Assembly: GCA_051453625.1 (NCBI GenBank)
Contig: JBOZIK010000001.1
Coordinates: 7,870,413 to 7,934,412 of the forward strand
Length of the DNA: 64,000 nucleotides
Reading direction: 5' to 3'
DNA from: Welwitschia mirabilis
Taxonomy: Eukaryota
Below are positions 7,091-33,555 of the stretch, in pieces. The notes under the pieces were generated by a model, which was not told the DNA's origin, did no database searches, and saw only the letters and a list, made by a program, of their open reading frames with translations. Made by a program: the position numbers and the translations under genes. The number at the start of each line of letters is the position of its first letter. Position 1 is the stretch's first letter.

Positions 7091-7507
7091 TATAATGTTC
7101 CATTTTACTACTTTTGGATTTTTTGGCATAAAAATAAACATATAAATAATATCCTAGAAATAATAAGAATAATAAGAAATCATTTGGCAAAATATGGATC
7201 TTATTATTAGAAGCAGAAAATTACATTTCTTAACATTTAGATAATAGTCCTAGACTAGTGGTCAAAGGTAAATACATGGACTATGACTTGAGTCCCCTTC
7301 TTAAGACCCTTAGGAATCAAACAAAGTTTTCATTAGTTACATCCACCTTATCTATCCACCTTAACCTAATGTCATAGGCTTTTATAGCATAAATGAAAGG
7401 ACATAGTTTTATATCTTTAGATCATAACCATTCGTAACAACTCATTAATCATGCTTATTTAGCACCTTAATAAATTCTTTTATAAATTGTAAATTTGGAA
7501 CATTACA
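7091..7507 (-). repeat. 3' LTR of element A (~417 bp)
   Basis: Termini TATAATGTTC (decayed TGTAATG) and AACATTACA. Homologous to 33470-33796 and, in reverse complement, to 22826-23240. PPT is adjacent at ~7508-7521. Confidence 0.88.
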
Positions 7508-7689: not shown

Positions 7690-10205
7690 AAGTTTAAGAA
7701 AATTCTCCTACATGTACTTTCTATTTTTCCAAGTTTCTTGGTTATAATGGATTCATTGGTTGAGTACTTCATCTATATTTTAATTACTTAGTTATGGTAT
7801 CTAAGACTTTTTCGAGTGGGAAAACAAAGGTTCAATTGGGTCTAAGCATAATATGCTACTAATTTAGTGTTTAGTCCTAGTTCTTATCCTTATAGTAAGG
7901 TTTCAGCATGATTAAATGGAAAACTAGATGAATTCGAGACATTCACAATGTTAGTTCTAATTCATAGGCTAAATCCCCTATTCTTTTCATGATCTTAATT
8001 GGACCACAATATTGAGGGACTATTTTGATATACTTTTCCATTTTTAAGGAGTTCATTTTTTTCTTGATTTTTAGTAGAACTTGTTTGCTAACTTGGAATA
8101 TATGAGTCTAATGTTTCTGATCATAGTACTTCTTATACTGATCTTGAGCAACTTGTAGTTGTCTTTTTGTTTTAGTAATCATGTATTTCATAATTTTTAA
8201 TTTGGAAAGTGTATTTTTTTTAATTTTTATAAAGGATCTAATAATGTGACATGGGTGGAGTAGTTTACATCACTTTGAATAGCAAACCTTGAATTGAGGT
8301 TTGAAATATCTAATTATAAGTAAGTGTGACCAGGTGTAGGTAGTTATTCCATTGTTTGGGTTTTCTAGCCATTTATTATTATTAGAATATCTTCTAGAAT
8401 GTGATTTAATCTTTCTATTTGGCCATCTATTTCTAGGTAATATGTAGTATTAAAACTAAGTTTAGCACCCAAGTAATGAAAGAAACTTTATCAAAAATTT
8501 GATAAGACTTTAGATCTCAATCACATATAAGAACTTGAGGTGCATCATATAACTTAAAAAATTCTTACACAAATCATAGGATTAATTATTTTACCATGTT
8601 AGAGCTTTATACTACAATGAAATGGGCCATCTTAGTCAACCTTGCTACACAAATAAAAATTGCATCATGTTATCTATTAATAAGAAGTAGCCCACTAATA
8701 AAATCTATAGAGATTTATTTCCATTTCCATTGTGATATCCCTAAAGGTTGAAGGTGTCCATTGGGTTGTCCTTAATCAATATTTATTTACTAGAATATGG
8801 GATAATTATAGATGTATTTATTAAAATCTACTTTCATTCTAGGCTAAAGGTAATGTTTTCTTAATTGGTGGTAGTTTCCGATAAATCTAAGATGTCTTTC
8901 ATATAGAACTTTATGTAGTTTAGACATTAAATTTCTTCCCCATGGGCCTTATGAAATGCAAAGATGCTATCCTTTTAATAGGTATCCATCCCATAAGAGC
9001 ATGTAGATGTCTACTTCTTGGATTAATTGATGTATATCTCTGAGATATGGATCATCCACTATGGATGTCTTAAAGAAAACTGATAGATCTGATGTAATAG
9101 TGATGGCTAGCATGCACCACATTCTACTTAGAGTGTTTGCAACTTTACTCTCCTTTCTTTGGGTGTACTATAGTTTGAATTCATATTCTATAAGGAATTC
9201 ATTCTATTTTCTCTATCACATACTTAGAAGAGGCTATTTCTAGGAATATTATATGCTTTTGTAACCTATTTTAAGAAGAAATTTACCATTCAACAAGTAA
9301 TGTCTTTAAACTTTTAGCACATGCATTATGGCTAGTAGTTTTAGATCATGAATGGAGATAGTTCCTCTCATTTTGGTTTAATATTCATGATTTGTAGGTA
9401 ATTACCTTATCATCTTGAATTAGTATGGCTCCTATACCTTGAGTAGAAGCATTAGTGATAACTATGGTTGGTTTATTCATGTCTCTAATTTTGAGAATAG
9501 GTGTCATTATAAGCAGTAGATTTAGCATGAGAAATGCCTTCTTAGATTTTTCATTGAATTTAAATGTAAATGTTGATTTGATTAAATCTATCAGTGGTAC
9601 TACAAGTTGAGAGAACCTTGGAATAAATTTCTAATAGAAGTTAGCTAACCCTAAGAAGCTTCAAAACTATGTCACATCCTTTAATTCTAGTCATTTCCTT
9701 ATGGCTTGTACTTTGATTGGATCAGTTTTCATCCCTATACTAAAAATGACGTATCCTAGGTAGCTAATTTTTATCTGGAAGAAGTTACATTTGCTCAACT
9801 TAGCTTCAAAATCATACCAGGTTAGGATCTGTAAAACTTGCTTCAGGTGTGCAATATGATCATCTCGAATTTTGGAATATATCATAATATCATTTAAAAA
9901 CACAACTATAAATTTATTTAAATAAGATCAAAAACTATCATTCATCAAACTCATAAAAGTAGTAAGAGCATTTGTTAAACCAAAGGACACTACTACGAAC
10001 TTGTAATGCCCATATCTTGTTTTAAAGATAGTTTGGTAAATATCTTCATCTTTAATATATATTTGGTGATATCCAGATTTAAGTTGATTTTTTAGAAGAA
10101 TTTGACTTTTTTGAATTTAATCCAATAGGTCATTAATTCTTGGTAAAGGATATCTATTTTTAATAGTTACCTTATTTAGCTATCTGTAGTCAATGCAGAG
10201 TCATA
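7690..10205 (-). pseudogene. Element A pol, 3' part: RT, RNase H, integrase, chromodomain
   Basis: [60 protein letters not shown], integrase ISIDFISGLL, and chromodomain PLEKVLDT...HYNQETWKNRKYM*ENFLKL. Many stops. Confidence 0.93.
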
Positions 10206-10339
10206 GGATATGTAATGTTTTCAATTTACTATTTGAGTAATAAGTATGTTAAAGGATAAATGAGTGTAATTAATAGAGATATGAATGAGTGTAAACCAAG
10301 TATGAAAAAATGTGTTTCTTCATCATTCTATTTAAGCTA

Positions 10340-12312
10340 GAGAGGGATTGGTATTTTTTTAATTCATCCATCAACTCATTAACTTTGGGGTATAGGATCT
10401 TCACCACTAATAAAATCTGATTGGTATGATACGATGCTTGATCTTGCTCATTGATGATGGACCACAGAACTATAGGTACATAATGAGAAGGCTCTAAAGA
10501 AGACAAGCAACAAATAGGCTTTAACTTAAAGACTGAAAGTAAGGAGTGGAACATGACATATCCCTTTGATCCATTAATGTATCAAAATAATTAAGAACCT
10601 CTTCCCCTAAGAATTAAAAGGAAATAATAAATCCATAAAGAGGCTAGTGGAAGATACAAAAGGGAAGTCTTCGCTTACTATGGTGAAATCCTTCCTTAAC
10701 TTTTAAAGGAATAGCTTTTCTAAAGGTCATGGGGTAAAATCTAGATTATTCTCGAATATGATCTCTGAGTGAGAAACATAAAATGAAACAAAAATGCTTA
10801 GTAAAGATAGCCTAGTAAGTCATAAAAAAGAAGAAAACAATAGAAATATGAAAGTAAGTTAATACCCCATAGGGTCGGTGTCACCAAGAAAAGCTAAGGG
10901 ATGCATCTTATTCCTCAGGTTTATCTAGCATAGGATAGTTAATTGGAGTTTTATTACATTTTTAGTGGGAAGAGTCATGAGATCTTGAGGCCTTACTCAT
11001 CTGTAACATAATGACAAAAAAAAAACAAAGTCATCAAAAATACACATTTTATTAAAACGTTCTCAACAAGAATCCATACCTCAGATGGAATAGAAAAAGT
11101 ACCCTAAGATGTNNNNNNNNNNNNNNNNNNNNNNNNNNNNNNNNNNNNNNNNNNNNNNNNNNNNNNNNNNNNNNNNNNNNNNNNNNNNNNNNNNNNNNNN
11201 NNNNNNNNNNNNNNNNNNNNNNNNNNNNNNNNNNNNNNNNNNNNNNNNNAAATCTAGATCATTCTTGACCATGATATCTGAGTGGAAAACCTAAAATGAA
11301 ACAAAAATGCTTAGTAAAGATAGCCTACTAAGCCATAAAAAAGAAGAAAACAATAGAAATATGAAAGTAAGTTAATACCCCAAAGGGTCAGTGTCACTGA
11401 GCAAAGCTAAGGGATGCATCCTCTTCCTCAGGTTTCTCCAGCATAGGGTAGTTAATTAGAGTTTTATTACATTTTTGATGGAAAGAGTTATGAGATCTTG
11501 AAGCCTTACTTATCTATAACATAATGACAAATAGAAAACNNNNNNNNNNNNNNNNNNNNNNNNNNNNNNNNNNNNNNNNNNNNNNNNNNNNNNNNNNNNN
11601 NNNNNNNNNNNNNNNNNNNNNNNNNNNNNNNNNNNNNNNNNNNNNNNNNNNNNNNNNNNNNNNNNNNNNNNNNNNNNNNNNNNNNNNNNNNNNNNNNNNN
11701 NNNNNNNNNNNNNNNNNNNNNNNNNNNNNNNNNNNNNNNNNNNNNNNNNNNNNNNNNNNNNNNNNNNNNNNNNNNNNNNNNNNNNNNNNNNNNNNNNNNN
11801 NNNNNNNNNNNNNNNNNNNNNNNNNNNNNNNNNNNNNNNNNNTCTAAAGATATCCTCCTAACTAAAAAGAATAATAAGTAAATGATGTAGGTTATAACCT
11901 CATTTACCTGATCATGAAGAAAGGCTCTACCAACAATTAGTTCTCCATAAGCTACAAAGTATGGGGTAGTGAAATTAGTGATGGAGATCTCATGGTAGTG
12001 AGTATCCACCTCTCATAAACACACAGAATTATCTAATTAATTAATCATGAAGTAATATAAATACTCATTGAAATAAAAAACCTTAGAAGACATGCAATTA
12101 TCTTGATTTATTTAAAAAACCATCTCATTACTCTCTTCAAAAATTGAGATTGGGACATGACAAGGACAGGAAATGATAATTATATGAGGATCAAAATAAG
12201 AATACAAAGAATAGAGAATGTAAAAAACAATGAGATGATGAGGATGAAAAGAAGGAAAGCCACATAGATGTAAAAGATTAGAAGATAAGAACCAAGAGAT
12301 CCCTTGCTCCAT
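10340..12312 (-). pseudogene. Antisense accessory ORF of element B (unknown product, probably multi-exon)
   Basis: ATG at 12312 in GCCATGG context. It continues through deamination stops and one frameshift into DTHYHEISITNFTTPYFVAYGELIVGRAFLHD, and later NEQDQASYHTNQILLVVKILYPKVNELMDELKKYQSLS. Homologous in frame to A 29868-32372. Confidence 0.65.
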
Positions 12313-13614
12313 GGCTTATTATTGTAATTTTAGTTTATCAAACCTGATATTTGTAGAATTTCAAGAAATGATGAGGCAAAGTCTTTGAACCATACCTTAA
12401 CAAAGAATATGTACATCAATAAATAATGGAGGAGCATTAATATTTATAAGAAGAGGTAGGTTTTGAAAAGACCTACATAAAATACAACAAAAAAAAACAC
12501 TAAATAAAAGAAAGAAAATTAGAAAAAGAAACAATAATGGAAGTGCCATTCATAAGAAAGGAGAAGAAAAAGAAAAAAAAACAATCGAATTGATTATGGA
12601 NNNNNNNNNNNNNNNNNNNNNNNNNNNNNNNNNNNNNNNNNNNNNNNNNNNNNNNNNNNNNNNNNNNNNNNNNNNNNNNNNNNNNNNNNNNNNNNNNNNN
12701 NNNNNNNNNNNNNNNNNNNNNNNNNNNNNNNNNNNNNNNNNNNNNNNNNNNNNNNNNNNNNNNNNNNNNNNNNNNNNNNNNNNNNNNNNNNNNNNNNNNN
12801 NNNNNNNNNNNNNNNNNNNNNNNNNNNNNNNNNNNNNNNNNNNNNNNNNNNNNNNNNNNNNNNNNNNNNNNNNNNNNNNNNNNNNNNNNNNNNNNNNNNN
12901 NNNNNNNNNNNNNNNNNNNNNNNNNNNNNNNNNNNNNNNNNNNNNNNNNNNNNNNNNNNNNNNNNNNNNNNNNNNNNNNNNNNNNNNNNNNNNNNNNNNN
13001 NNNNNNNNNNNNNNNNNNNNNNNNNNNNNNNNNNNNNNNNNNNNNNNNNNNNNNNNNNNNNNNNNNNNNNNNNNNNNNNNNNNNNNNNNNNNNNNNNNNN
13101 NNNNNNNNNNNNNNNNNNNNNNNNNNNNNNNNNNNNNNNNNNNNNNNNNNNNNNNNNNNNNNNNNNNNNNNNNNNNNNNNNNNNNNNNNNNNNNNNNNNN
13201 NNNNNNNNNNNNNNNNNNNNNNNNNNNNNNNNNNNNNNNNNNNNNNNNNNNNNNNNNNNNNNNNNNNNNNNNNNNNNNNNNNNNNNNNNNNNNNNNNNNN
13301 NNNNNNNNNNNNNNNNNNNNNNNNNNNNNNNNNNNNNNNNNNNNNNNNNNNNNNNNNNNNNNNNNNNNNNNNNNNNNNNNNNNNNNNNNNNNNNNNNNNN
13401 NNNNNNNNNNNNNNNNNNNNNNNNNNNNNNNNNNNNNNNNNNNNNNNNNNNNNNNNNNNNNNNNNNNNNNNNNNNNNNNNNNNNNNNNNNNNNNNNNNNN
13501 NNNNNNNNNNATGGAAGTGCCATGCATAAGAAAGGAGAAGAAAAAGAAAAAAAAACTATCGAATTGATTATGGATTACATAGAAAATGAGTTAAAAATGA
13601 GGGGTCTATAAGGG

Positions 13615-13622
13615 TATTTATA
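13615..13622 (-). promoter_or_regulatory. TATA box (TATAAATA) facing the antisense ORF in element B
   Basis: Minus strand reads CCATTATTATAAATACCCTTATAGACCCCTCATTTT. Position and context are conserved in element A at 29296-29303. Confidence 0.5.
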
Positions 13623-13749
13623 ATAATGGACCAGGATTAACCTAACTCTAAGAGTAAAAGTTAATCATAGTTAACTAACCCATAGTCAAGTGTAATTAAA
13701 CTAAGTTAACTAAAGTTAAAACCATAGTTAGACATCTAATTCAAAAGAA

Positions 13750-14500
13750 GTCGATGTTGCACTCCAAGTTCATGATGTCATACTCGAAAAAACTCGATGT
13801 CGTGCTTATGTGTTTGACATTATACTAGGATCCACAAGACTCACTGTTGCACTCTAACGGCCAACATCACACTCTGAACCCGACATTGCACTTAGCTCCA
13901 CAAGGCTTAATATCATACTCTAAAGCCCAACATCACACTCTAAAGGCCAAAATTGCACTCTAAAGCCTAATGTTACAATGTAAATGCTGGCACCGCATCT
14001 GAAGGCTACCATCACACTTCAAGTCCAACATCATACTTTGGTACTTGATGTCACACTTGCCTTCACAAGGGCTCAATGCTGTTGTTGCTTCACAAAAAGC
14101 ATTTTTTCCACTTGCATGTGCAAGAAGCTCTAATGTTGTACTTGAATGTTTGATGTCAAACTTGGATGTTTGATGTCATACTCAAGTAATAGATACATCC
14201 CTCACTGCTGGTATTTTCAATGACCTCTGACATTGTAGTAGAAGACTTGACATTGCACTTTGATGTTTAACATTACACTTACATTATTAACATCACACTT
14301 ATGTATCTGATATTTCACTCAGGTACTAGACGTGTCCCTCGCCCCTAGCACTACTCTTGATGTCCCAAAATCTTTTCAAAATCTCTAATGTTACACTTAG
14401 TACTCAATGTCATACTTGGGTACTAGACATCACAATTAATCTTTTGATGTCACTCTTACAGTTCAACATCGCACCTAACTATCTAATGTTGCATTTGTAT
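13750..14500. repeat. Degenerate ~20-21 bp tandem array (inferred ancestral core CGACGTCGCACT) in element B leader
   Basis: Recurrent units CGATGTTGCACT, TGATGTCATACT, CAACATCACACT, CGACATTGCACT and TGATGTCACACT at ~20-21 bp spacing. Variants follow CG>TG/CA decay. Confidence 0.8.
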
Positions 14501-14626
14501 GCTTGATTATATAAATCCCTTAGTAGTTGGAATTCATGTTAATAAGGTTATTATGATAATAATTAAACTACTTCTTCTAATTATTTTCTATCTACCATAT
14601 GAGTACAGGTATCTAAGTATTACAAC

Positions 14627-17600
14627 AATGCTATAAAAAGGGATGTAACATCATCAAAAAGGGAACTGACAAAAAAGGAAAGAAGAATAATGAAGGAGAG
14701 CTGGCACACCATAGAACATAGAGTAAATAGATGGATAGATAAAACAGAAAGTCAAATCAACAACATTTACTTTTAGAATAAACTTTTAGCTAGTAGGATT
14801 AATAGCCTTCTCTCTTTCCTGGAAGATAGACCTCCAAAACATAATCCAAGAGCATCCTAAGTGCAACCATGTACATTAGGAAAACATACTCCAATAGATA
14901 TAATTAATCTATAGAACATCTAGATAAGACTACTGAACACATAGGCTAACCTTAATAACTCTAATCTATAGGAAGGCTAACCTTAATCACTCTAATCTAG
15001 AGGAAGGAGAGGAGATTGTGAAAATGATATGTTTGAATAAATATGAAGGAAAAGCAGAAACAAGTGAAGAAGCCATATCCTAGATCCAATAAATAGAGAA
15101 CTACNNNNNNNNNNGATTCAAAATGTTCCTCTAGAAAAATGATGCACATACATTGTTTCCTTTATTATAAAAAAGGCACAAGAATGGTGATCTAGATACC
15201 AATAAAAACATCCCCAAAGAATACCATAAGAAATATTTATAGAAGAGTTCAAAATAAAATTCATCCCAAATGATTTCATTAAAGATCAAATGTTGCAGTT
15301 CCAATGTGTTGTAGTGTGAATTCTTGCAATCTTGAAGCTCTTTAAGTAAACTTATAAATCATATAACTTGCAAAATACACATGCTAGTATATATAGGAGT
15401 TTACTGAAATGTCATAATCCCAACGAAGGCAGTAGGCTCAGAGTTAAAGAATTGATTTCCAAAGGTAGTTTTGGTTCTTTTATCTTTTACTAACTGAAAG
15501 TAAATAATAAAGTAAATGTAATGCAAGATAAATGAAGATGCAATTTAAGTAAATGTAAATGGAAATGAGATTCTACTTAGATCCTAATCCTTCTATTATA
15601 AGAACTAGCTTTTAGCCTTTCTATCACAAAGGCTATCCTTTCTATAATTTATCTTAATCAAGAAGACTATCTACTAATTCTTATTTAACATAAACTATTA
15701 GATCTACTAAGTAGAATATGCAATATATAATATGAATGAAATAGAAATGTAATGCAAACATATTACTAAGTAAGACCAATCTTAATAAAGGTTGCCCTCA
15801 TGATCTGAATAAATCATAGATCTGTCACTTAACTATGACCAACTTAAAGCATAAGGGACATTCACAGAATTAAAGTGAAAATAGAATTTGTATTAATGAA
15901 AATAACGTTACATCCACTTACAATAGAATAACAGCTCTTCAGTGGAAGAGACATAGCCTAACACTAAGAAAAGCCTTTTCTATAGTTATTGGATGGACCT
16001 CCTACCTTCAAGCTTCCATTACAAGCATAACAAGTACAAAAGATGGTTGGAAGTGAAGGAGGGAAGGGCTATTTATAGTTTTATAATGAACCATAATTCT
16101 AAACGTTCATTAAGGAAACCCTAGCCAACCACATATCCCGTTTGGCACTTGTTATAATGTAATTTACTGCCGCAGTGTAAAAACAATTATTGTTCCATCC
16201 ATCGTCCACACGACAGTAGGNNNNNNNNNNNNNNNNNNNNNNNNNNNNNNNNNNNNNNNNNNNNNNNNNNNNNNNNNNNNNNNNNNNNNNNNNNNNNNNN
16301 NNNNNNNNNNNNNNNNNNNNTCCAAGATCATTCTAAGTGCAAACATCTACATTAGGAAAACATACTCCAATAGATATAATTAATCTATAGAACATCTAAA
16401 TCAGACTACTGAACATAGAGGCTAACCTCTAAGCCTTCCTATCAAATAGAGCTAATCATTCCAATCTAGAGTAATGTAAAGGAGAGAAGATTGTGAAAAT
16501 GATATGTTTGAATACATATGAAGAAAAAGCTGGAACAAGTAAAGAATCCATATCCTAGATCCAATAAATAGAGAACTACTTCAAGCTTCAAAATATTCCT
16601 CTAAAAAGATGATGCATATACATTGTTTTCTTTCTTATAGAAAAGGCACAAGAATGGTGGTCCAGATACCAATAAAAACATCCCAAAGAATACCATGAGA
16701 AATATTTATAAAAAAGTTAAAAATAAAATTCATCCCAAATGATTTCATTAAAGATCAAATGTAGCAATTCCAATGCCTCTACTATAGAAAGTGCCCACTG
16801 GATAAACATTAGTCTGAATTCTAGTGCCTCATGAAGTACCAAAAGAACTTTATTAAGAATCATTTGATCATCAGTTTCATTGGGATATTACCGCCAAAAG
16901 TTAGAAGTGTCTTATTCATCTTGGAGATTAAATCCACTGGAGATTCTTGCTACAAGATAAGACATCATCTCCAAGGATAAGAAAATTGATGGACAGAGCA
17001 ACATCACCTCTAAGTGAACAGACACCTTACATCAAATGCACCACCAACAAGAGAGTCATATAAAAAAATCATACTTATCATAAATACCACAAGAAAGGTC
17101 ACATTACTAAGAACTACCCATCTAAAGCATGACCATCGAATTTTCTTAAGCACAGTTGGCCTCAAACTTTTCAAAATCTGCCTATGTTATAAAAAAGAGT
17201 ATACACTACCATCTGAAGGGGTGATTCATAATTAGTAATCCATCTTAGACTTACGTGGTAATATTTTATCTTTTTCTATTTCATTCCTAGTTGATAGTAG
17301 TTCCTTACATAATTTCATTTTATCCATATTATTTTACAAGCTAAACATAACCCCATTCAAAGAACAAGAATCCACCATAGGCATTGCAGGGAATAGTTTT
17401 CTTGCATAAGATAGGACTACTGCCCTTATCAACTACAATATTCATAACTTACATTTTAGGAATAAATTCTATATATTCCAAATAAGGGAGTATGATGTCA
17501 TTCTAGGGATCTCCTTCTTAATTAGATATAGTGTTTAAATCAATTTTCACCAATGAACTATATTACTATCAACTTTCTTCAGAGAACAAATATTCAAAGG

Positions 17601-20600
17601 TAAGGGAAGGAGTAATAAGATATTCTTGACCTCATCCAAATAGATCTTAAGAGCTATCAAAAGAAAACAAGTCTTCATTATCCTAGCATAGGTAGAAAAC
17701 CATAAAGAAAATCCTACTATACTAGAAGAACTGTAAGAATACTCTAATGTATTTAAAGACTAAAAACCACTCCTATCCAAGAGGAAAGTATAATACACAA
17801 TTAACTTAGTTCCTAGAGTGCAATCAATAGCATAAGCATCTTATCATTTCTAAGTAAATAATTAAGAGAACTCAAGTTGCAAGTTAAGTAGCTATTATTG
17901 GAAGGAAAAATTTACCCTAGTGTATCACCATGGAAAGCACTAGTTCTCTTTGTTAAGAAAAAAGATGATACCTTGTAACTTNNNNNNNNNNCTACAGGAA
18001 GTTAAACAAGGTAACCATTAAGAACAAGTATCTATTATCAAGAATCAATGATTTATTGGATCAACTTTAAGGAGCTAAGTTTTTTTAAAGATTGAGTTAC
18101 AGTTTGGATACCATTAGATCCACATCAAGGATAAAAACATCTACAAGACCTTCTTTAGAACAAGATATGGACATTACTAGTTTGTAGTAATTCCTTTCAG
18201 TTTAATAAAGATTTAGCTACTTTTATGAGTTTAATGAATGATATTTTTTGACTGTATTAGGATAAATTCATAGTTGTATTTTTAGATTATATTCTAATAT
18301 ATTCTAGANNNNNNNNNNNNNNNNNNNNNNNNNNNNNNNNNNNNNNNNNNNNNNNNNNNNNNNNNNNNNNNNNNNNNNNNNNNNNNNNNNNNNNNNNNNN
18401 NNNNNNNNCTTATCAACTACAACATTCATGACTTATATTTTAGAGATAAATTCTATGTCTTCCTAATTGAATAGTATCATGCCATTCTAGGGATTTCCTT
18501 CTTAACTAGATATAGTATTTAAATCAATTTTCATCAATGAACTATATTACTATCAACTTTGTTCAAAGAACAAATCTTCAAAGGGGAGGGGAGGAGTAAT
18601 AAAATATCCTTGATCTCATCCAAATAGATCTTAAGAGCTATCAAAAGGAAATAAGTATTCATTACCCTAGTATAGGTAAAAAACCATAAAGAAAATCCTA
18701 CTACACTAGAAGAACTATAAGAATAATCTAATGTATTTAAAGACTAAAAAACACTCCTATCCAAGAGGAAAGTATAATACACAATTGACTTAGTTCCTAG
18801 AGCATAACCAATAGCATGAACATCTTATCGTTTCTAAGTAATATAATTAAGAGAACTCAAGCTGCAAGTTAAGTAGCTATTGTTGGAAGGAAAAATTTAC
18901 CCTAGTGTATCACCATGAAAAGCACTAGTTCTCTTTGTTAAGAAAAAAGATGATATCTTATGACTTTGCATTGACTACAGGAAGTTAAACAAGGTAACCA
19001 TTAAGAACAAGTATCTATTACCAAGAATCAATGATTTATTGGATCAACTTCAAGGAGCCAAGTATTTTTAAAGATTGAGTTAAAGTTTAGATACCATTAG
19101 ATCCACATCAAGGATAAAAACATCTACAAAACCTTCTTTAGAAGAATATATGGACATTATGAGTTTGTAGAAATTCCTTTCAATGTAATAAAGCTTTATC
19201 TACTTTTATGAGTTCAATGGATGATATTTTTTTACTGTATTTGGATAAATTCATAGTTGTATTTTTAGATTATATTCTAATATACTTTAGAAATCAATAT
19301 GACCATATTGCACACTTGAAGAAGGTTCTACAGGTTATGTTCAAGCATAATTTTAAAGCCAAATAAAGCAAGTATAACTTATTTTAAATAGAAATTAGCT
19401 ATCTAGGCCATGTCATCTCTAGTAAAGGAATTACAACTGACCTAGTTAAAGTGTAAGCTATAAGAGAATGATGAGAATTAAAAGATGCTACATAATTTTG
19501 AAGTTTCCTAGGATTGGTTGACTTATATCAAAAATTCGTTTCAAGATTATTTTAACTCATAGTGCCATTAATATATTTAACTAAGTCAAAAACCACATTC
19601 AACTTTAATGACAAATGTAAGGAATCATTTCTTAGATTAATCTACTACTTATAATAACATCTATTCTCAAAATCACAAACATAAACAAATTATTTACAAT
19701 CATCATCAATGGTTCTACTTAAGAAATAAAAGTTGTACTTAGCTAGAACTATTAGGTAATTATTTATGAATTACTCAAGTTAAATTAACATGAGAAGAAC
19801 TATATTGTACATGATCTCAAATTACTAGTCATAGTACGTGCCTTGAAAGTTTGGATATGTTATCCTATGGAAAGTGAATTTTTTCTCAAAATAGATTATA
19901 AAAGCTTGGAATATTTTTAGAAATAGCTTCTTCTAAATATTTTATAGAGAAGATGGGATAAGTTGCTTATAGAATATAACTTCAAAATATATTATACCCC
20001 TAAGAAAGAGAATAAATTCCAGATGCCTTAAGTAGAATGTGGTACATGCTAGCAACCTCTATTACAACTGATGTATCTGTCTTCCTCAAAACATCTTTAA
20101 CCGATGATTCATACTTCAAGGACATACATCAAATGATCCAAGAATAAAAAGAAGTAGATATATACATGCTCTCATAGGATGGATACCTCCTGAAAGTATG
20201 ATGTTTATTCATTCCACAAGGCCCATGGAGAAGGAAGATGGTGTCCGAACTACATGAAGTTCTATATGCAAGATACCTGGATTAATCAAGAATTACCACC
20301 ACTTGCAAAAACAATACTTTTGGCCCATAATGAAAGTATAATTAAAGGTATACATCCATAATTATTCCATATGCTATCAAATGAAGATTGATTAGAGAAG
20401 ACCCACTAGACNNNNNNNNNNNNNNNNNNNNNNNNNNNNNNNNNNNNNNNNNNNNNNNNNNNNNNNNNNNNNNNNNNNNNNNNNNNNNNNNNNNNNNNNN
20501 NNNNNNNNNNNATAGATTATAAAAGCTTGGAATATTTTTAGAAATAGCTACTTCTAAATATGTGATAGAGAAGATGGAATGAGTTTCTTGTAGAATATAA

Positions 20601-22110
20601 CTTTAAAATATATTATAACCCCAAGAGAGAGAATAAATTTGTAGGTGCCTTAAGTAGAATGTGGTACATGCTAGTAACCTCTATTACAACTGATCTATCT
20701 GTCTTTCTCAAAACATCTTTAACTGATGATTCATACTTCAAGGACATACATCAAATGATCCAAGAAGAAAAATAAGTAGATATATACATGCTCTCATAGG
20801 ATGGATACCTCCAAAAAGTATGATGTTTATGCATTCGACAAGGCCCATGTAGAAGGAAGATGATGTTCGAACTACATGAAGTTCTATATGCAAGATACTT
20901 GGATTAATCAAGAATTACCACTGCTTGCAAAAATACTACTGTTAGCCTAGAATGAAAGTATAATTATAGGTATACATCCACAATTGTCCCATATGCTAGA
21001 AAATAAAGATTGATTAGAGAAGACCCACGAGTCTCCTCCAACCTTTGGAAATCCCATAGTGGAAATGGGAAGAAATANNNNNNNNNNNNNNNNNNNNNNN
21101 NNNNNNNNNNNNNNNNNNNNNNNNNNNNNNNNNNNNNNNNNNNNNNNNNNNNNNNNNNNNNNNNNNNNNNNNNNNNNAATATAATCAAATAATTAGTCCT
21201 CTAGTTTATATAGGAAGTTTTTAAATTACATCATGCATCACAGGTTATAGTACCCAACTAAGATCCAAAGTTCTTGTCTAAGTTCTAACAAAGTTTATTT
21301 CACCACTTAGGCTCTAAACTCAACTTCAGTACTGCATACCACTAAGAAATAGATGTTCAAACAAAAAGAGTAAATTATATACTAGAAGATACTCTAATAT
21401 GTTACATGATAGGAAAGCCTAAACAATGGGAGAACTATCTACATTTGGTAAAGTTTGCTTATAATTAGATGTTTCAAACTTCCATTTGATGTTTACCGTT
21501 CAAAGCAATGTATGATAGGAACTATTCCACCACTATCACATACTCATATCCTTCAAAGAAATAAAAAAGGATAATACCCTCAGAATTAAAGATGATGAAA
21601 AATGTAATCAATAAAATAAAAATACAGCTACAAAAAGTACAAGATTGATAGAAAAATTCATATAATCAAAAACATTAGACCCACACATTCTAAGTTAACA
21701 AACAGGTATTGCTAAGAATTAAGATAGAAAGTAACTCCTTGAAAATGAGTAAGTATAGTAAGTTATCATTATAGTTCTGCAGTCTATTCAAGATCATTGA
21801 CAGAATAGGAGATCTAGCATATAAACTAGAACTCACTCAAAAAATGTCTTGAATACATTTAGTTTTTCATGTGAGAACAATGAAACCATATCATGAAGAT
21901 AAAAACTAGGACTACACCTTAAACTGGTAACATATTATGCTCAAACCCAACCTAACTTTCACTATCCAATTGAAAAAGTTTCTAGATACTAGAATTAAGA
22001 AATTAAGAATTAAACATATAAATGAAATACTTATTTAATGAATCCACTATAACTAATAGATGTGGAAAAATAAGGGGTATATGTAGGAGACTTTTCCTGG
22101 ACTTTTTAAA
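14627..22110 (+). pseudogene. Element B gag-pol (gag, protease, RT, RNase H, integrase, chromodomain), with assembly-duplicated segments
   Basis: gag AQEWWSRYQ...FIPNDFIKDQM, protease FLVDSSSLHNFI (~17280), RT SVSPWKALVLFVKKKDD and [47 protein letters not shown], integrase FSTAYH*EIDVQTKRVNYILE, and chromodomain KFLDTRIKKLRIKHINEILI (~21970-22110). Confidence 0.93.
15307..16220 (-). mobile_element. Younger LTR (TGTTGT-terminus family) inserted in element B gag; far end lies in a gap
   Basis: gag homology stops at TTCCAATG|TGTTGTAGTG, while the duplicate copy continues TTCCAATG|CCTCTAC at ~16775. Minus-strand CTATAAATAGCC at ~16068-16079. Similar to the LTR at 57885-59074 and retains more CpG. 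Confidence 0.75.
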
Positions 22111-22825
22111 TAAAGCCTAATATACCATTTTTTTAATATTATTAATGTATCTATTAATAAATAATATCTATCCTTTTATTATGTCTTGTATACTGCCCCT
22201 GGCCTAAATTTGCACTTCAAAAGTAGTTNNNNNNNNNNNNNNNNNNNNNNNNNNNNNNNNNNNNNNNNNNNNNNNNNNNNNNNNNNNNNNNNNNNNNNNN
22301 NNNNNNNNNNNNNNNNNNNNNNNNNNNNNNNNNNNNNNNNNNNNNNNNNNNNNNNNNNNNNNNNNNNNNNNNNNNNNNNNNNNNNNNNNNNNNNNNNNNN
22401 NNNNNNNNNNNNNNNNNNNNNNNNNNNNNNNNNNNNNNNNNNNNNNNNNNNNNNNNNNNNNNNNNNNNNNNNNNNNNNNNNNNNNNNNNNNNNNNNNNNN
22501 NNNNNNNNNNNNNNNNNNNNNNNNNNNNNNNNNNNNNNNNNNNNNNNNNNNNNNNNNNNNNNNNNNNNNNNNNNNNNNNNNNNNNNNNNNNNNNNNNNNN
22601 AAAACAAGGAGTATATGTAGAAGACTTTTCCTAGAATTTTTAAAGAAAGCCTGATATACCTTTTTTTTAATGTTATCGATGTATCTATTAATAAATAATA
22701 TCTCCCCTTTCATTATGTTTTATATACCATACAAAAAATAATCAAGAGGAGCATGGATTCAGAAATAATATAAGAAGAGGATAGACCATATTCAAGGATG
22801 AGAATAATTCCTAAGAGGGAGGGAA

Positions 22826-23240
22826 TGTAATGTTCCCAATTTACTATTTGTATAATAAGTGTACTAAACACTAAATAAGCATAATTAATAGAGATAGAAA
22901 TGGGTGTAATCCAAGTTTGAAAAGATGTATTCCTTCATTATGCTATTTATGCCTATGATATTAGGTGGGGGTGGATAGACTGAGTGGATGTAACTAATGA
23001 CAAACTTGGCTAATTTGCAAGGGTCATAGGAGGAGGACTCAGGTCATAGTCTATGTCTTTATCTTTAACCATTAGTCCAAGGCTATTGCCTCATGATGAG
23101 GACTATAATTCACTGCTTTTAATAATAAAATCTACATTCTTTTTAGATTATTCCTTGTTTTTTCTATTGATCCTATTATATTATTTTATATGTTCCTTTT
23201 TATATGAAGTAATCTAAAATTAGTAAAATAAAACATTACA
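22826..23240 (+). repeat. 3' LTR of element B (415 bp); second assembly copy at 24054-24466
   Basis: PPT AAGAGGGAGGGAA, then inverted termini TGTAATGTT...AACATTACA. Confidence 0.93.
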
Positions 23241-23245
23241 GGGTA

Positions 23246-26200
23246 CCATCCTTTTTCTTCACAAAAAGTACTGGGGCTCTCTAAGTTGACACACTAGGAT
23301 AGATATTGCCTTCCAAAATTAATTATTCAATTTGCAATTTCATTTTTCTTAATTATATAACTGAGAATTAGTAGGAAGCTTGAGCTATTTGGTTGTACAT
23401 TAGGAAGTAAGTCAATTATGTGTCTTGGATAATACCATCTTAAAATCTTTAAATACATTAAAAAATTCTCAGAGTTCTACTAGTAATGTGGAATTTTCTT
23501 TAGAGATTTTTTCATGAATCAAGGTAATAAGACTTATTTCCTTTTAATAGCTTTTGACATCTGCTCAGGTAAGGTTAATGATATCTTCTTATTAATTTCA
23601 TCCCTTTCAAGATTTATTTTCTAAATGAAGTTCTTAGCAAGAGGATGCATTGGTAAAAGTTAATTCAAACATTATATCTAAGTAAGAAGGAAAATCCCAA
23701 AATGGCATGATATTCTCCAANNNNNNNNNNNNNNNNNNNNNNNNNNNNNNNNNNNNNNNNNNNNNNNNNNNNNNNNNNNNNNNNNNNNNNNNNNNNNNNN
23801 NNNNNNNNNNNNNNNNNNNNCATTAATGTCATAATTAGATGGTTAGATCAGATTATGATAAAATGCTTGAAAATGACTGAATTGAGTGCCTCTTCCCTGC
23901 AAAACATCACCAATTACACTATTAAAACATGATAATTTGGGATCACAACATATACCATACAAAAAATAATCAAGAGGAGCATGGCTTCAAAAATAATGTA
24001 AGAAGACGATAGACCATATTCAAGGATGAGAATAATTCCTAAGGGGGAGGAAATGTAATGTTTCCAATTCACTATTTGTGTAATAAGTGTATTAAATACT
24101 AAATAAGCATAATTAATAGAAATAGAAATGGGTGTAACCCAAGTTAAAAAGATTTATTTCTACATTATTCTATTTATGCCTATGATGTTAGGTGGGGGTG
24201 GATAGACTGAGTGGATGTAACTATTGACAGCCTTGGCTATTCCCCAAGGGTCACAAGAGGAGGACTCAGGCCATAGTCTATGTCTTATCTTTGACCATTA
24301 GTCCAAGGCTATTGGCTAATGATGAGGACTGTAATTCACTGCTTCCAATAATAAAATCTGCATTCTTTTTAGATTATTCCTTATTTTTTCTATTGATCCT
24401 ATCATATTATGTTATATGTTCCTTTTTATATGAAGTAATCTAAAATCAGTAAAATGAAAAATTACAGGGTACCATCCTTTTTCTTCAAAAAAAGTATTAG
24501 AGCTCTCTAAGATGACATACTAGGGTAGATATTGCCTTCCAAAATTAATTATTCAATTTGTAATTTCATTTTTTTTAATTGTATAACTAAGAATTAGTAG
24601 AAAGCTTGAACTATTGGTTATGCACTAGGAAGTAAGTTAATTATGTGTCATAATTTTATTTTGGATAGTACCATCTTAAAATCTTTAAATACATTAAAAA
24701 ATTATTATAGTTCTACTAGTAATGTGGAATTTGCTTTGGAGATTTTTTCCTGAATCAAGGTAATAAGACTTATTTCCTTTTAATAGATTTTAACATCTTC
24801 TTAGGTAAGGTTAAGAATATCTTATTATTCATTTCATCCCTTTCAAGATTCATTTTCTAAATGAAGTTCTTAGCAAGATGATGCATTGGTAAAAGTTAAT
24901 TCAAACATTATATCTAAGTAAGAAGGAAAATCCCAAAATGGCATGATATTCTCCAATCTGAAAGACATAGAAGTTATTCCTAAAATGTGAGTCATGCATG
25001 GTGTAATTGACAAGAAAAGTAATCCCATTCTATGTAAAAAAAAAAAATTCCCTATGACTTCTATGATAGATTTTTATTCAGTAAATAGGGTAATGTTGAA
25101 TTTGTTAAATAATATTAAAGAAATAAAGCTATGGGAGGCATAACTATCTATCAGAAATGAAATAAAGAAAGATGAAATTTAACCATGTAAGTTCAAGATA
25201 AAGTACTAGTTATGAATCATACTTGCTTAGATGGTGTCATACATCCTTTTTAACTATGCACCTAAATTTTATAAGGTTTGAGGCCATGTGTTCTGAGGGA
25301 GATTCAGTGCTCAAGATTTAGCTGGATAATTTCTAATAACATAAACATTTTTATTCATGGTAGGTAATGTTAGTTCTAGATGTTTCATGTGTCAATGGTA
25401 TGTTAGTTATGTTGGATTCATTCATTTATGAGTGGTGAGTCTTGTTCCATCAATTTTTTATCCTTAAAGATAATGTATTACTTTATGATGGGCATCTTAG
25501 GTGGATTTGATCTCCAAGATGCATAAGACACTTCTAATTTTTGTTGGAAGTTTTGAATAAAACTGTTAAACAATTTCTTTTCTTTGAAGGTCTTTTGGTA
25601 TTTCATAAGTCAGTGGAATTTAGATTAGTATTCATGAAATGGCCATTTTCCTAGGCAAAGACATTAGAATTCTACCATTTGGTCTTCTATGAAGTCTTCA
25701 GAATTGAATTTATTTTTGAATTCCTTCACAAATATTTCCTAAGGCACTTGTTAAGTATGTTTTTATTGACATCTAAACCATCCTTCCTATGTATTTCCTA
25801 CAATAAATATGGTGGCATATGCACATTGTCATTCTAATGAAACATTCCAAAGGTCATAGTAGTTTTCTATTTATTAAATCTAGGAGATGACTTCCTTACT
25901 TATCCTAGCTTTTCCTTCATATGTCTTAAGGCATATCATTTTTGCAGTCTCCTCTTCTTTTCATTATTTTTATTAGAATTGTTTCCTTAATTTGATAGGA
26001 AGAATTAGAGGATTGACTCAATGTTTAGAAGTATCATATNNNNNNNNNNNNNNNNNNNNNNNNNNNNNNNNNNNNNNNNNNNNNNNNNNNNNNNNNNNNN
26101 NNNNNNNNNNNNNNNNNNNNNNNNNNNNNNNNNNNNNNNTTTTATCTATGCACCTAAATTTTGTAAGGTTTTAGACCATGTGTTCTGAGGGAGATTCAGT

Positions 26201-27900
26201 GCTTAAGATTTAGCTGGATAATTTCTAATAATGTAAATGTTTTTATTCATGATAGGTAATGTTAGTTCTAGATGTTTCATGTGTTAATGGTATGTTAATT
26301 ATGTTGGATTCATCCATTTATGAATGATGAGGCTTGTTCCATTAATTTTTTATCCTTAAAGGTAATGTATTACTTTATGATGGGCATCTTAGGTGGATTT
26401 GATCTCCAAGGTGCATAAGACACTTCTGATTTTTATTAAAAGGTTTGAATAAAACTATTAAACAATTTCTTTTCTATGAAGTTCTTTTGGTATTTCATAA
26501 GTCAGTGGAATTCAGACTAGTGTTTATGAAGTGGCCATTTTCGTAGGCAAAGACATTGAAATTCTACCATTTAGTCTTCTATGAACTCTTCAGAAATGAA
26601 TTTATTTTTGAATTCCTTTACAAATATTTCCTAAGGTACTTGTTGAATATGTTTTTATTGACATCTGAACCATCCTTCCTATGCATTTCCTATAATAAAT
26701 ATGGTGGCATGTGTGCATTGTCATTCTAATGAAATATTCTAAAGGTTATAGTAGTTTTCTATTTATTGAATCTAGGAGATTACTTCCTCACTTATCCTTG
26801 CTTTTCCTTCATATGTCTTAAGGCATATCATTTTTGCAATCTCCTCTCCTTTCCATTATTTTCATTAGAATTGTTTCCTCAATTTGATAGGAAGGATTAG
26901 AGGATTAACTCAATGTTTAGTAGTTTTATATAGATGTTCTAAATGTTGACTNNNNNNNNNNNNNNNNNNNNNNNNNNNNNNNNNNNNNNNNNNNNNNNNN
27001 NNNNNNNNNNNNNNNNNNNNNNNNNNNNNNNNNNNNNNNNNNNNNNNNNNNNNNNNNNNNNNNNNNNNNNNNNNNNNNNNNNNNNNNNNNNNNNNNNNNN
27101 NNNNNNNNNNNNNNNNNNNNNNNNNNNNNNNNNNNNNNNNNNNNNNNNNNNNNNNNNNNNNNNNNNNNNNNNNNNNNNNNNNNNNNNNNNNNNNNNNNNN
27201 NNNNNNNNNNNNNNNNNNNNNNNNNNNNNNNNNNNNNNNNNNNNNNNNNNNNNNNNNNNNNNNNNNNNNNNNNNNNNNNNNNNNNNNNNNNNNNNNNNNN
27301 NNNNNNNNNNNNNNNNNNNNNNNNNNNNNNNNNNNNNNNNNNNNNNNNNNNNNNNNNNNNNNNNNNNNNNNNNNNNNNNNNNNNNNNNNNNNNNNNNNNN
27401 NNNNNNNNNNNNNNNNNNNNNNNNNNNNNNNNNNNNNNNNNNNNNNNNNNNNNNNNNNNNNNNNNNNNNNNNNNNNNNNNNNNNNNNNNNNNNNNNNNNN
27501 NNNNNNNNNNNNNNNNNNNNNNNNNNNNNNNNNNNNNNNNNNNNNNNNNNNNNNNNNNNNNNNNNNNNNNNNNNNNNNNNNNNNNNNNNNNNNNNNNNNN
27601 NNNNNNNNNNNNNNCTTGGATTTTATTTGATTGGTATTTCTTCCTAGTAAGATTTTATTTGATTGGTATTTCTTCCTAGTAAGAGAGAAGGTTGTCAATC
27701 TTACTGGTAAGGATTTTATTTTATGAGGAGATGTGATTAAGTTGGGTGTCTATTTTATCCATTCATCCATTTACTTTGTATTCCATAATACACCAATTGG
27801 TTTGATGTCCTTCTAAACTCACATGCCTCTCCTTTTTTACTTTTTTTTTAAGAGTGGTTTGTCTTCTTCTAATGGCATTATGTCCTTTTATAATGTTTTC
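23246..27900 (-). pseudogene. Element A gag, protease and RT start (partly duplicated across gaps)
   Basis: Minus strand GNIYPSVST*RAPVLFVKKKDGT (23246-23310), protease FISFLIDSYASHSFI (~25130-25170), and gag remnants homologous to B 14627-17100. Confidence 0.88.
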
Positions 27901-28019
27901 TACAACATATAGGTATATATAACTAAAAGGTAATTATAAAAATAATTAGAAGGATCATTAGCAATTATCATAATAGCCCTTAATGATGTGGATCCCCTTT
28001 GTAATAATTGTTAAGGAAG

Positions 28020-29295: not shown

Positions 29296-29303
29296 TATAA
29301 ATA
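29296..29303 (+). promoter_or_regulatory. TATA box facing the antisense ORF in element A
   Basis: CCACTACTATAAATACCTCATGGACTCCTCATTTTTCTC, followed by a CT-rich leader. Conserved with B. Confidence 0.5.
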
Positions 29304-32779: not shown

Positions 32780-32792
32780 GGCTCTAATACTA
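32780..32792 (-). promoter_or_regulatory. Primer binding site (initiator tRNA-Met) of element A, decayed
   Basis: Minus strand TAGTATTAGAGCC, 2 nt after the LTR end, is the canonical TGGTATCAGAGCC with two transitions. Confidence 0.8.
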
Positions 32793-32794
32793 AA

Positions 32795-33524: not shown

Positions 33525-33555
<31 letters not shown>

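What the first reader, a model, noticed from the sequence alone, without database searches (positions are those of the whole stretch)
13750..14500. CG-palindrome tandem array next to the accessory gene promoter: possible cis-target and trans-factor module
Seen: dozens of ~20-21 bp units whose variants converge on CGACGTCGCACT (a palindromic CGACGTCG core with three CpGs). The array lies between gag and the divergent TATA box, in both B and A (28020-29160). Known: Arabidopsis VANDAL transposons pair an accessory VANC protein with tandem arrays of short target motifs to reverse silencing. Inference (speculative): the array plus the antisense gene could be an analogous anti-silencing or methylation-sensing system in an LTR retrotransposon. 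The ~21 bp period is about two helical turns, which would phase binding sites.
Basis: partly seen in the sequence, partly recalled or inferred. Interest (0 to 1): 0.7.

Follow-up and report, generated by a model that had tools for sequence, protein, structure and literature searches.

The report
Decayed binding-site array inside old retrotransposon
Two old, dead copies of a plant-type Ty3/gypsy retrotransposon each carry a worn-down array of about 30 copies of a 20-base unit, once rich in CpG, between two outward-facing promoter-like boxes (one towards gag, one towards an antisense extra gene); this is a variant of a known retrotransposon layout whose function is still unproven.

Summary
The degenerate core YRAYRTYRCACT occurs 59 times in the window against 11.2±3.3 in shuffles. 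Of these, 53 lie in two arrays, 13752-14495 and 28018-29149. The period is 20 bp, not 21, and the units sit in blocks separated by spacers. The three YR steps are CG/TG/CA/TA mixtures, which fits an ancestral CGACGTCG that no unit retains.

The arrays belong to two nested copies of one Ty3/gypsy family: E1 (+, 10211-23240) is inserted into E (-, about 33.9 kb to 7091). In E the array lies in a roughly 4-kb leader between an iMet-like primer binding site and gag. It is flanked at 126-147 bp by two outward TATA-like boxes. One faces gag. The other faces a decayed antisense ORF, which shows a codon-periodic substitution pattern over 97 codons (p=1.8e-5) but has no Pfam domain and no credible homologue.

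My best reading (0.4) is a multimerised protein-binding-site cluster serving a divergent internal promoter, possibly bound by an ACGT-core factor and sensitive to methylation. A neutral minisatellite is the main rival. The VANC-like anti-silencing idea is untested (about 0.1). Antisense extra ORFs together with tandem repeats are already known in plant Ty3/gypsy elements, so I class this as a new variant of a known kind, of moderate interest.

The parts
13752..14495 (+). Array, copy 1 (in element E1): 28 units of a 20-bp repeat with core YRAYRTYRCACT, in blocks of 3-6 units.
28018..29149 (-). Array, copy 2 (in element E): 30 units in eight blocks of 2-4 units, separated by spacers of about 72 bp (higher-order period about 132-152 bp).
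   Evidence: self-similarity at 59-60%
13615..13622 (-). TATAAATA box facing away from gag (antisense promoter candidate), copy 1. It is 130 bp from the array edge, inside a conserved block at about 13594-13640.
29296..29303 (+). The same antisense TATAAATA box in copy 2, 147 bp from the array edge. The bin that contains it has higher contig depth than its neighbours.
14632..14639 (+). TATAAAAA box facing gag, copy 1. It is 137 bp from the array edge and 58 bp before the gag ATG at 14690. The promoter role is inferred.
27885..27892 (-). TATAAAAG box facing gag, copy 2, 126 bp from the array edge.
13640..13745 (.). Run of 3-5 GTTAACTAA-like repeats between the antisense TATA box and the array. 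The same run is at about 29155-29285 in copy 2.
11845..12135 (-). Best-supported coding stretch of the antisense extra ORF, copy 1 (97 codons, 3 stops).
29869..30159 (+). The same antisense coding stretch in copy 2 (97 codons, 2 stops; 54% amino-acid identity to copy 1).
10338..13614 (-). Region Z of E1, between the truncated 5' LTR and the antisense TATA box. It is broken by N runs (11113-11249, 11540-11842, 12601-13510) and by duplicated contig ends. The part 10338-11112 shows no codon periodicity.
29304..31944 (+). Region Z' of E, homologous to Z (N runs 29542-29866 and 31365-31464).
14690..17981 (+). gag and protease of E1. RVP_2 matches at 17263-17575. gag-like text is readable in the translation. 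Contains assembly duplications.
10211..23240 (+). Element E1 as a whole. Layout: 5' LTR remnant 10211-10337; Z; array; gag-PR-RT-RH-INT; polypurine tract 22813-22825; 3' LTR 22826-23240 (TGTAATGTT...AACATTACA). Flanking 5-bp repeats GGATA (10206-10210) and GGGTA (23241-23245).
23241..27840 (-). gag and protease of the older element E. It ends in ...FVKKKDGT exactly at the E1 insertion.
7946..10205 (-). RT, RNase H and integrase of E, downstream of the E1 insertion.
7091..7507 (-). 3' LTR of E (417 bp), preceded by a polypurine tract at 7508-7520.
32780..33796 (-). 5' LTR of E (partial, broken by an N run; ends at 32795) and an iMet-like primer binding site, TAGTATTAGAGCC, at 32792-32780.

Best explanation
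The array is the decayed remnant of a multimerised protein-binding-site cluster. It lies in the long 5' internal region (between the primer binding site and gag) of an old, abundant Ty3/gypsy LTR retrotransposon family.

While the family was active, each 20-bp unit carried a conserved core of about 15 bp, inferred to be YY-CGACGTCGCACT-T. That core has three CpGs and a GACGTC (C-box, ACGT-core) palindrome.

The cluster sits midway between two outward-facing TATA boxes. One leads to gag, 58 bp before its ATG. The other leads to an antisense extra ORF. I read the array as the shared upstream activating region of this divergent internal promoter. The most likely binder is a dimeric ACGT-core factor of the host (bZIP type). 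Every site contains CpG, so cytosine methylation would shut the cluster off, and later deamination turned the sites into the TG/CA/TA variants seen today.

Shown: the array, its core-versus-linker conservation, its position, the two TATA blocks, the coding signature of the antisense ORF, and the high copy number of the family.
Inferred: the ancestral CpG palindrome, promoter activity, the identity of the binder, and methylation sensitivity.
For: -
- Half-motif anchoring avoids circular selection of units. Among 55 sites chosen only by YRAYRT, the unselected positions +7 to +13 keep purine/pyrimidine identity in 0.89-0.96 of units, and the two bases before the motif in 0.91. Linker positions +14 to +18 keep it in only 0.51-0.73. 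Background elsewhere in the window is 0.50-0.60.
- The two copies differ in unit number, block structure and spacer length, and are about 38% diverged over this region, yet they keep the same core.
- All three YR steps show TG, CA and TA together. This is expected from CpG decay on either strand, in a window with CpG observed/expected of 0.12.
- The two TATA boxes lie in conserved blocks 126-147 bp from the array edges in both copies.
- The antisense ORF has a coding signature.
- The array lies about 4 kb into the leader, after the primer binding site. A promoter just before gag would give a translatable mRNA without that leader (inference).
- Plant bZIPs prefer palindromic ACGT-core hexamers, with C- and G-boxes (SACGTS) preferred (passages of PMC4012195).
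- Thousands of DNA contigs at 80% likeness or more cover both the array and Z in two runs (5,467 and 5,956 laid). Many joints skip 233-677 bp inside the array, which indicates array-length variation among family copies.
Against: - There is no functional evidence of any kind.
- RNA support is nearly nil: 21 of about 12.5 million and 13 of about 11.1 million reads lie on the 3.75-kb stretch at 80% likeness or more. None marks a transcript start.
- Tandem repeats are common in expanded non-coding regions of plant LTR retrotransposons, and their origin and function are described as unknown (passages of PMC11963269 and PMC6317226).
- The core/linker contrast could partly reflect how a higher-order block was amplified rather than selection.
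- The ACGT core survives in only 1 of 58 units, so the C-box is a reconstruction.
- TATA-like strings are frequent in DNA of 29% GC.
- The binder is a guess.
Confidence: 0.4

Rival explanations
1. Neutral minisatellite. The leader is a hypervariable non-coding region in which a short unit expanded by slippage or unequal exchange, as in other plant LTR retrotransposons. The CpG-rich unit and the nearby TATA-like strings have no function.
For: Arrays of tandem repeats in expanded non-coding regions are a known, frequent feature, and their function is called unknown (passages of PMC6317226 and PMC11963269). Array length varies among family copies (joints) and between the two copies here. No expression evidence was found.
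Against: The core is far better kept than the linker when units are chosen by the other half of the motif. The same core persists in two copies with different block architecture. The array is centred between two conserved TATA blocks in both copies.
Confidence: 0.25
2. One reading: the product of the antisense ORF binds the array units of its own family and counteracts silencing or senses methylation. This would be analogous to VANC on VANDAL repeats or TnpA on En/Spm subterminal repeats.
For: There is a same-orientation, high-density motif array next to the promoter of an element-encoded extra gene with a coding signature. [quoted passage not shown] Antisense ORFs with likely DNA-binding domains co-occur with tandem repeats in Retand elements (abstract and passages of PMC11963269).
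Against: The product has no recognisable domain or homologue. The element is not a Mutator-like transposon. The published VANC motifs have no CpG. All sites in these copies decayed by deamination, so any protection ultimately failed. Co-variation cannot be scored from two copies carrying the same core.
Confidence: 0.1
3. RNA-level element. The array is transcribed as part of the genomic RNA leader. Its GC-rich palindromes would act in dimerisation, packaging or Gag binding, like the palindromic dimer-initiation sites in retroviral leaders (that comparison is from my recall).
For: In element E the array lies between the primer binding site and gag. All units have one orientation. Both decayed arrays still fold somewhat better than shuffles, with z-scores of -2.79 and -2.13.
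Against: Any palindrome-rich repeat would give such modest z-scores. About 30 copies and rapid copy-number change are unlike known packaging signals. The spacing from the two TATA boxes is not explained.
Confidence: 0.1
4. Foreign module. Z plus the array is the remnant of another mobile element or captured gene, with its own promoter and upstream repeats, that was inserted in reverse orientation into the leader of a founder copy and then inherited by the family.
For: The module has its own TATA box and opposite orientation. It makes the leader unusually long for an element with an iMet-type primer site; passages of PMC6317226 say tRNA-Met is used by most chromoviruses and not by non-chromoviruses. 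A short LTR-U3-like piece borders Z. RNA reads with CpG-rich flanks match about 50-70 nt of Z, which suggests an expressed relative elsewhere in the genome.
Against: No transposase, terminal inverted repeats or target duplication around the module were found. No homologue was found outside this family. This origin would not exclude any of the functional readings above.
Confidence: 0.1

Closest known systems
Plant Ty3/gypsy elements with extra ORFs and tandem repeats in expanded non-coding regions (Retand, Grande, RIRE2; eORF classes of Neumann et al. 2019)
   Same: An antisense extra ORF with its own promoter lies inside the internal region. Family-specific arrays of short tandem repeats sit in the same non-coding region, with variable array length. 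Function is unknown (PMC7264820 read in full apart from the end of its reference list; passages of PMC11963269 and PMC6317226).
   Different: Here the module lies upstream of gag (the eORF-5'R position), not between pol and the 3' LTR. No Transposase_28 domain and no archaeal-type RNase H domain were detected. The primer site is iMet-like. The LTRs are short (about 416 bp). The array is flanked by two divergent TATA boxes, and its unit is an inferred CpG palindrome.
VANDAL21/VANC21 anti-silencing system of Arabidopsis
   Same: [quoted passage not shown] The repeats gain and lose units quickly (passages of PMC5735166).
   Different: That host is a Mutator-like DNA transposon. The VANC motifs (YAGTATTAY; AGTTGTCC/AGTTGTAC) lack CpG. 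VANC binding and hypomethylation are shown experimentally, whereas nothing is shown here. No sequence relation of the antisense product to any known family was found.
En/Spm (CACTA) TnpA and its 12-bp subterminal repeats (recalled, not checked in any call)
   Same: A CpG-containing 12-bp motif is repeated many times near a promoter. It is bound by an element-encoded protein whose action is tied to methylation state.
   Different: Those motifs occur in both orientations next to terminal inverted repeats of a DNA transposon. Here all units share one orientation, inside an LTR retrotransposon.
Clusters of ACGT-core (C-box/G-box) bZIP sites in plant and viral promoters
   Same: The inferred GACGTC palindrome matches the SACGTS class preferred by plant bZIPs (passages of PMC4012195). 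The sites are multimerised upstream of TATA boxes.
   Different: The ACGT core is intact in only 1 of 58 units. About 30 copies is far more than in usual promoters. The conserved flank CACTT is not part of known bZIP sites, as far as I recall.

Membership tests
Ty3/gypsy LTR retrotransposon | Domain order gag-PR-RT-RH-INT on one strand | tested here: met
   RVP_2 at 17263-17575 is followed by RT from about 17992. RVT_1, RT_RNaseH_2 and SH3_Tf2-1 match on the minus strand at 10203-7946. Retrotrans_gag matches only weakly (E=0.2), although gag-like text is readable.
Ty3/gypsy LTR retrotransposon | LTRs with TG..CA ends, polypurine tract, primer binding site, 5-bp target duplication | tested here: met
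   The 3' LTRs are 22826-23240 and 7507-7091, each with 9-bp inverted ends and preceded by a purine tract. The 5' LTR of E ends at 32795 and is followed by TT and TAGTATTAGAGCC. That string differs by two transitions from the iMet primer site as I recall it. Flanking repeats are GGATA/GGGTA. The 5' LTR of E1 is truncated after 127 bp.
Extra ORF, 5' reverse class (eORF-5'R of Neumann et al. 2019) | ORF of at least 250 codons upstream of the polyprotein, on the opposite strand | tested here: inconclusive
   Both copies are decayed and interrupted by N runs. Coding-type periodicity is shown for 97 codons only. No periodicity is seen in 10338-11112.
Retand/Tat lineage module (antisense TRP28 ORF plus repeats) | Module located between pol and the 3' LTR; Transposase_28 domain; primer site not tRNA-Met | tested here: not met
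   The module lies between the primer binding site and gag. No PF04195 hit at E up to 0.1 or 1. The primer site is iMet-like. Criteria are taken from passages of PMC11963269 and PMC6317226.
VANC-type anti-silencing system | Accessory protein of the VANC family encoded by a VANDAL (Mutator-like) element | tested here: not met
   The host is a Ty3/gypsy element. The antisense product has no Pfam family and no credible relative among 1.84 billion representatives. Decay limits sensitivity.
VANC-type anti-silencing system | [quoted passage not shown] | tested here: met
   28 and 30 units, all in one orientation, in non-coding DNA. The motif is essentially absent elsewhere: 6 of 59 matches lie outside the arrays.
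VANC-type anti-silencing system | The protein binds the motif and causes local loss of DNA methylation | not testable with these tools
   This needs DAP-seq or EMSA and methylome data.
bZIP C-box site cluster | Palindromic hexamer with ACGT core (SACGTS) | tested here: inconclusive
   It is present only as an inferred ancestral state. 1 of 58 units keeps ACGT (at 28936). The TG/CA/TA mixtures at the central step fit CpG decay.
Coding heptapeptide repeat | Period a multiple of 3 and an open, conserved frame | tested here: not met
   The period is 20 bp in 34 of 56 intervals. There is no substitution periodicity over the array. No Pfam hit on array ORFs.

The most novel reading that the evidence does not exclude
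An LTR retrotransposon family carries its own sequence-specific regulatory circuit. The antisense extra gene encodes a DNA-binding protein that recognises the roughly 30 CpG-palindrome units next to its own promoter. Binding would read or oppose their methylation and so switch the divergent gag and antisense promoters. That would be a retrotransposon counterpart of VANC/VANDAL or TnpA/Spm, evolved independently in a GC-poor, gymnosperm-like genome.
Probability: 0.08. Interest if true: 0.75.

Novelty: new variant of a known kind. Interest (0 to 1): 0.35.

Why it matters
The roles of extra ORFs and of internal tandem repeats in plant LTR retrotransposons are both open questions, and reviews call their function unknown. 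This family places the two side by side, with the repeats centred between two opposed promoter-like boxes, and the unit is made of CpG-bearing palindromes. That gives a concrete, testable layout for asking whether such repeats are regulatory sites and whether methylation controls them.

If young copies exist, the family could show how a retrotransposon runs an internal bidirectional promoter in a heavily methylated genome. If the array proves neutral, the case still documents how fully methylation-driven deamination erases CpG-based sites.

Tried and rejected
- Whole-genome search: no genome is held for this window.
- Earlier findings of this scan: three look-ups returned nothing.
- Pfam on both copies of Z in all relevant frames: nothing credible. 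The only rows were RTP at E=0.054 and TMEM251 at E=0.21, both far under their cut-offs.
- Profile search of the 97-codon antisense stretch against 1.84 billion representatives: one hit at E=4.6e-6. It is a 2,665-aa highly repetitive protein matched in six short stretches, which I regard as chance.
- Sequencing-run search: no RNA holder listed.
- Looking for the rest of the 5' LTR of E1: the last 120 bp or so of the 3' LTRs align weakly to the stretch just after the array (14540-14654; 27973-27889). BLAST E values were 0.002-0.3, and the scores did not exceed shuffles. I do not rely on this.
- I first read copy 1 as a minus-strand element with Z as its gag. This was rejected once RVP_2 and RT were found on the plus strand right of the array and the nested insertion was resolved.
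- Codon periodicity in Z 10338-11112: none in 10 of 10 windows. The gag-PR control reached p<0.05 in only 4 of 24 windows, so the test is weak.
- RNA folding of the arrays: z-scores -2.79 and -2.13, not decisive.
- A second palindrome (CACTT/AAGTG) spanning core and linker: linker purine/pyrimidine pattern fits in only 57-79% of units, so I left it as a possibility.
- Literature search for the literal 8-mer: 536 papers; the 12 listed are not about transposons or plant cis-elements, judging by their titles and abstracts. I did not open any of them.
- I found no paper describing this family or this motif in searches. That is not proof that none exists.

Full report
SETTING. The window is a gap-rich draft of a eukaryotic genome. 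It has 39 N runs, 29.06% GC and a CpG observed/expected ratio of 0.12. Sequence on the two sides of most N runs overlaps at 84-93% identity, so contig ends were not merged. This inflates lengths and adds noise to every comparison below. No whole genome is held for the window. The base composition equals the 29.07% GC that one paper reports for a heavily methylated, deamination-worn gymnosperm genome (passages of PMC8275611). I did not establish the source organism.

THE OBSERVATION.
- The degenerate core YRAYRTYRCACT, with at most one mismatch, occurs 59 times, against 11.17±3.28 (maximum 18) in 100 shuffles.
- Of the 59 matches, 27 fall in 13752-14495, 26 fall in 28018-29149 on the other strand, and 6 fall elsewhere.
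- At up to two mismatches there are 28 and 30 units.
- Spacing is 20 bp in 34 of 56 intervals and 19-22 bp in 41 of 56.
- Units come in blocks. Copy 2 has eight blocks of 2-4 units separated by spacers of about 72 bp, giving a higher-order period of about 132-152 bp. In copy 1 the spacers are about 27-85 bp.
- Tandem Repeats Finder reports only five short period-20 pieces.
- At the three YR steps the 58 units read CG 4/1/3, TG 22/23/16, CA 13/23/27 and TA 16/10/10. TG and CA at the same step, together with TA, is what decay of a CpG on either strand produces. The ancestral core CGACGTCGCACT is therefore a sound inference, but no unit has it and only one unit keeps ACGT.
- The 20-bp period and the absence of substitution periodicity over the array exclude a coding heptad repeat.

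IS THE CORE CONSTRAINED? Choosing units by the whole motif would be circular. I therefore anchored on one half and read the other half. Among 55 sites chosen only by YRAYRT:
- positions +7 to +13 keep purine/pyrimidine identity in 0.89-0.96 of units;
- the two bases before the motif keep it in 0.91;
- linker positions +14 to +18 keep it in only 0.51-0.73;
- the same anchors elsewhere in the window give 0.50-0.60.
The conserved core is thus about 15 bp and the linker about 5 bp. The two copies keep this core although they differ in unit number and block structure and are about 38% diverged over this region.

WHAT THE ARRAYS SIT IN.
- Pfam places RT, RNase H and the integrase SH3 domain on the minus strand at 10203-7946. 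It places a retroviral protease on the plus strand at 17263-17575, followed by RT from about 17992.
- Self-comparison shows 10274-17981 matching 31944-24459 in reverse, and 7077-10222 matching 23255-18942 in reverse.
- A single nested insertion explains these matches. E1 (plus strand, 10211-23240) lies inside an older element E (minus strand).
- E1 begins TGTAATGTT and ends AACATTACA, and is flanked by GGATA and GGGTA.
- E reads ...APVLFVKKKDGT up to the insertion and L*LCIDYR after it. This is one continuous RT motif with one stop.
- The 3' LTRs (22826-23240 and 7507-7091, about 416 bp) follow purine tracts.
- The 5' LTR of E ends at 32795. It is followed by TT and TAGTATTAGAGCC, which is two transitions away from the initiator-tRNA-Met primer site as I recall it.
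- The contig carrying that site runs on without a gap into the start of region Z'.
- In E the order is therefore: LTR, primer site, about 0.8 kb, Z' (about 2.8 kb as assembled, including an N run and a duplicated contig end), array, gag. The leader is about 4 kb.
- E1 keeps only the first 127 bp of its 5' LTR (80.8% identical to its 3' LTR), joined directly to Z. E has a weakly LTR-like piece at the matching place. A deletion by recombination between these two pieces would explain the structure of E1. That is inference.

THE TWO FLANKS OF THE ARRAY.
- On the side away from gag, a TATAAATA box lies on the opposite strand (13615-22; 29296-303), 130 and 147 bp from the array. It sits in a block of about 60 bp that differs between the copies almost only by transitions.
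- Between this box and the array there are 3-5 GTTAACTAA-like repeats.
- On the gag side, a TATAAAAA/TATAAAAG box on the gag strand (14632-39; 27892-85) lies 137 and 126 bp from the array. In E1 it is 58 bp before the gag ATG.

THE ANTISENSE GENE.
- In six-frame comparison of Z with Z', the best frames are antisense.
- Over 12135-11845 against 29869-30159 (97 codons, 54% amino-acid identity), mismatches at codon positions 1/2/3 are 28/96, 17/97 and 47/97 (chi-square p=1.8e-5).
- The RT control gives 72/272, 48/270 and 105/271.
- That frame has 3 and 2 stops. The other five frames have 5-13.
- Position 3 exceeding position 1 fits the antisense strand, not the sense strand.
- Against this, 10338-11112 shows no periodicity in 10 of 10 windows. 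The test is weak, however: only 4 of 24 control windows in gag-PR reach p<0.05.
- Much of Z cannot be compared because N runs fall at complementary places in the two copies.
- No Pfam family matches.
- A profile search of 1.84 billion representatives gave one hit that I judge spurious.

FAMILY-LEVEL DATA. Two DNA runs gave 5,467 and 5,956 contigs at 80% likeness or more on 27615-31364. Most were under 90% alike (3,623 and 4,044), and only 78 and 64 were at 99% or more. All covered bins had depth, and many joints skipped 233-677 bp inside the array. The family, including the array and Z, is therefore abundant and mostly old, and array length varies among copies.

Two RNA runs gave 21 of about 12.5 million and 13 of about 11.1 million reads, with no start sites. 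Four reads in each RNA run match only about 50-70 nt of Z' near 30594-30667 and run on into unlike, CpG-rich sequence. Read by hand, one frame of that flank (SFCRKWEKAPINYPVP) parallels the antisense frame of E1 (SFHQKCNKTLINYPML). The differences are largely transitions of the kind deamination would cause. This hints at an expressed, less decayed relative. However, the strand is unknown and an open frame also exists on the other strand, so it is only a lead.

INTERPRETATION. I favour (0.4) a cluster of protein-binding sites that served the divergent internal promoter. A roughly 4-kb leader makes a promoter just before gag useful for a translatable mRNA (inference). The inferred GACGTC core belongs to the class preferred by plant bZIPs (passages of PMC4012195). 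Because every site holds CpG, methylation could silence the cluster, and deamination then erased it.

The rivals are:
- a neutral minisatellite (0.25), since such repeats are common and of unknown function (passages of PMC6317226 and PMC11963269);
- an RNA-level leader element (0.1; fold z-scores -2.79 and -2.13);
- a captured foreign module (0.1), which is an origin story rather than a function.

COMPARISON WITH WHAT IS KNOWN.
- Antisense extra ORFs with their own promoters (Grande, RIRE2, Retand) are established in plant Ty3/gypsy elements, as are tandem repeats in the same internal regions. A 5' reverse class of extra ORF is part of the standard classification (PMC7264820; passages of PMC11963269 and PMC6317226).
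- This case differs in five ways: the position upstream of gag, the lack of the Transposase_28 domain, the iMet-like primer site, the two opposed TATA boxes, and the CpG-palindrome unit.
- It fails membership of the VANC/VANDAL system on the element type and on the protein family. The resemblance in layout remains.

VERDICT. I class it as a new variant of a known kind, with interest 0.35.

Noticed in passing
window, flanks of most N runs (e.g. 4434-5097 vs 5198-5862; 17425-18308 vs 18409-19291; 22722-23720 vs 23950-24956; 39185-40236 vs 40337-41386): Sequence on the two sides of the 100-N gaps is duplicated at 84-93% identity. Overlapping contig ends were left unmerged, so lengths are inflated and the sequence is noisy. 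The 910-N gap 12601-13510 is flanked by a 64-bp overlap at 97%.
   Followed up: partly
10206-10210 / 23241-23245, and E on both sides: There is a clean nested insertion of one family member into the RT-coding region of another. It has a near-identical 5-bp target repeat, and the RT motif is continuous across the site.
   Followed up: yes
10211-10337: The 5' LTR of E1 stops after 127 bp and runs straight into region Z, so the primer binding site and about 0.8 kb of leader are missing. This looks like a deletion between the LTR and a weakly LTR-like internal piece.
   Followed up: partly
1361-2064 (+): Open frames match RNA polymerase Rpb1 domain 5 (E=1.5e-4, under the cut-off) and cytochrome b/b6/petB (E=3e-14). 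This looks like an organelle-derived DNA fragment in the nuclear scaffold.
   Followed up: no
33526-33578: A perfect (AAG)17.7 microsatellite lies inside the 5' LTR of E. It is absent from the other LTR copies.
   Followed up: no
30594-30667: Reads from two RNA runs match only about 50-70 nt here and continue into CpG-rich sequence unlike the window. This suggests an expressed, less decayed relative of the antisense region elsewhere in the genome.
   Followed up: partly
46001-50000: Strong GC skew (+0.23 to +0.36) and AT skew occur over about 4 kb of otherwise unannotated repeat DNA. No Pfam hit on its ORFs.
   Followed up: no
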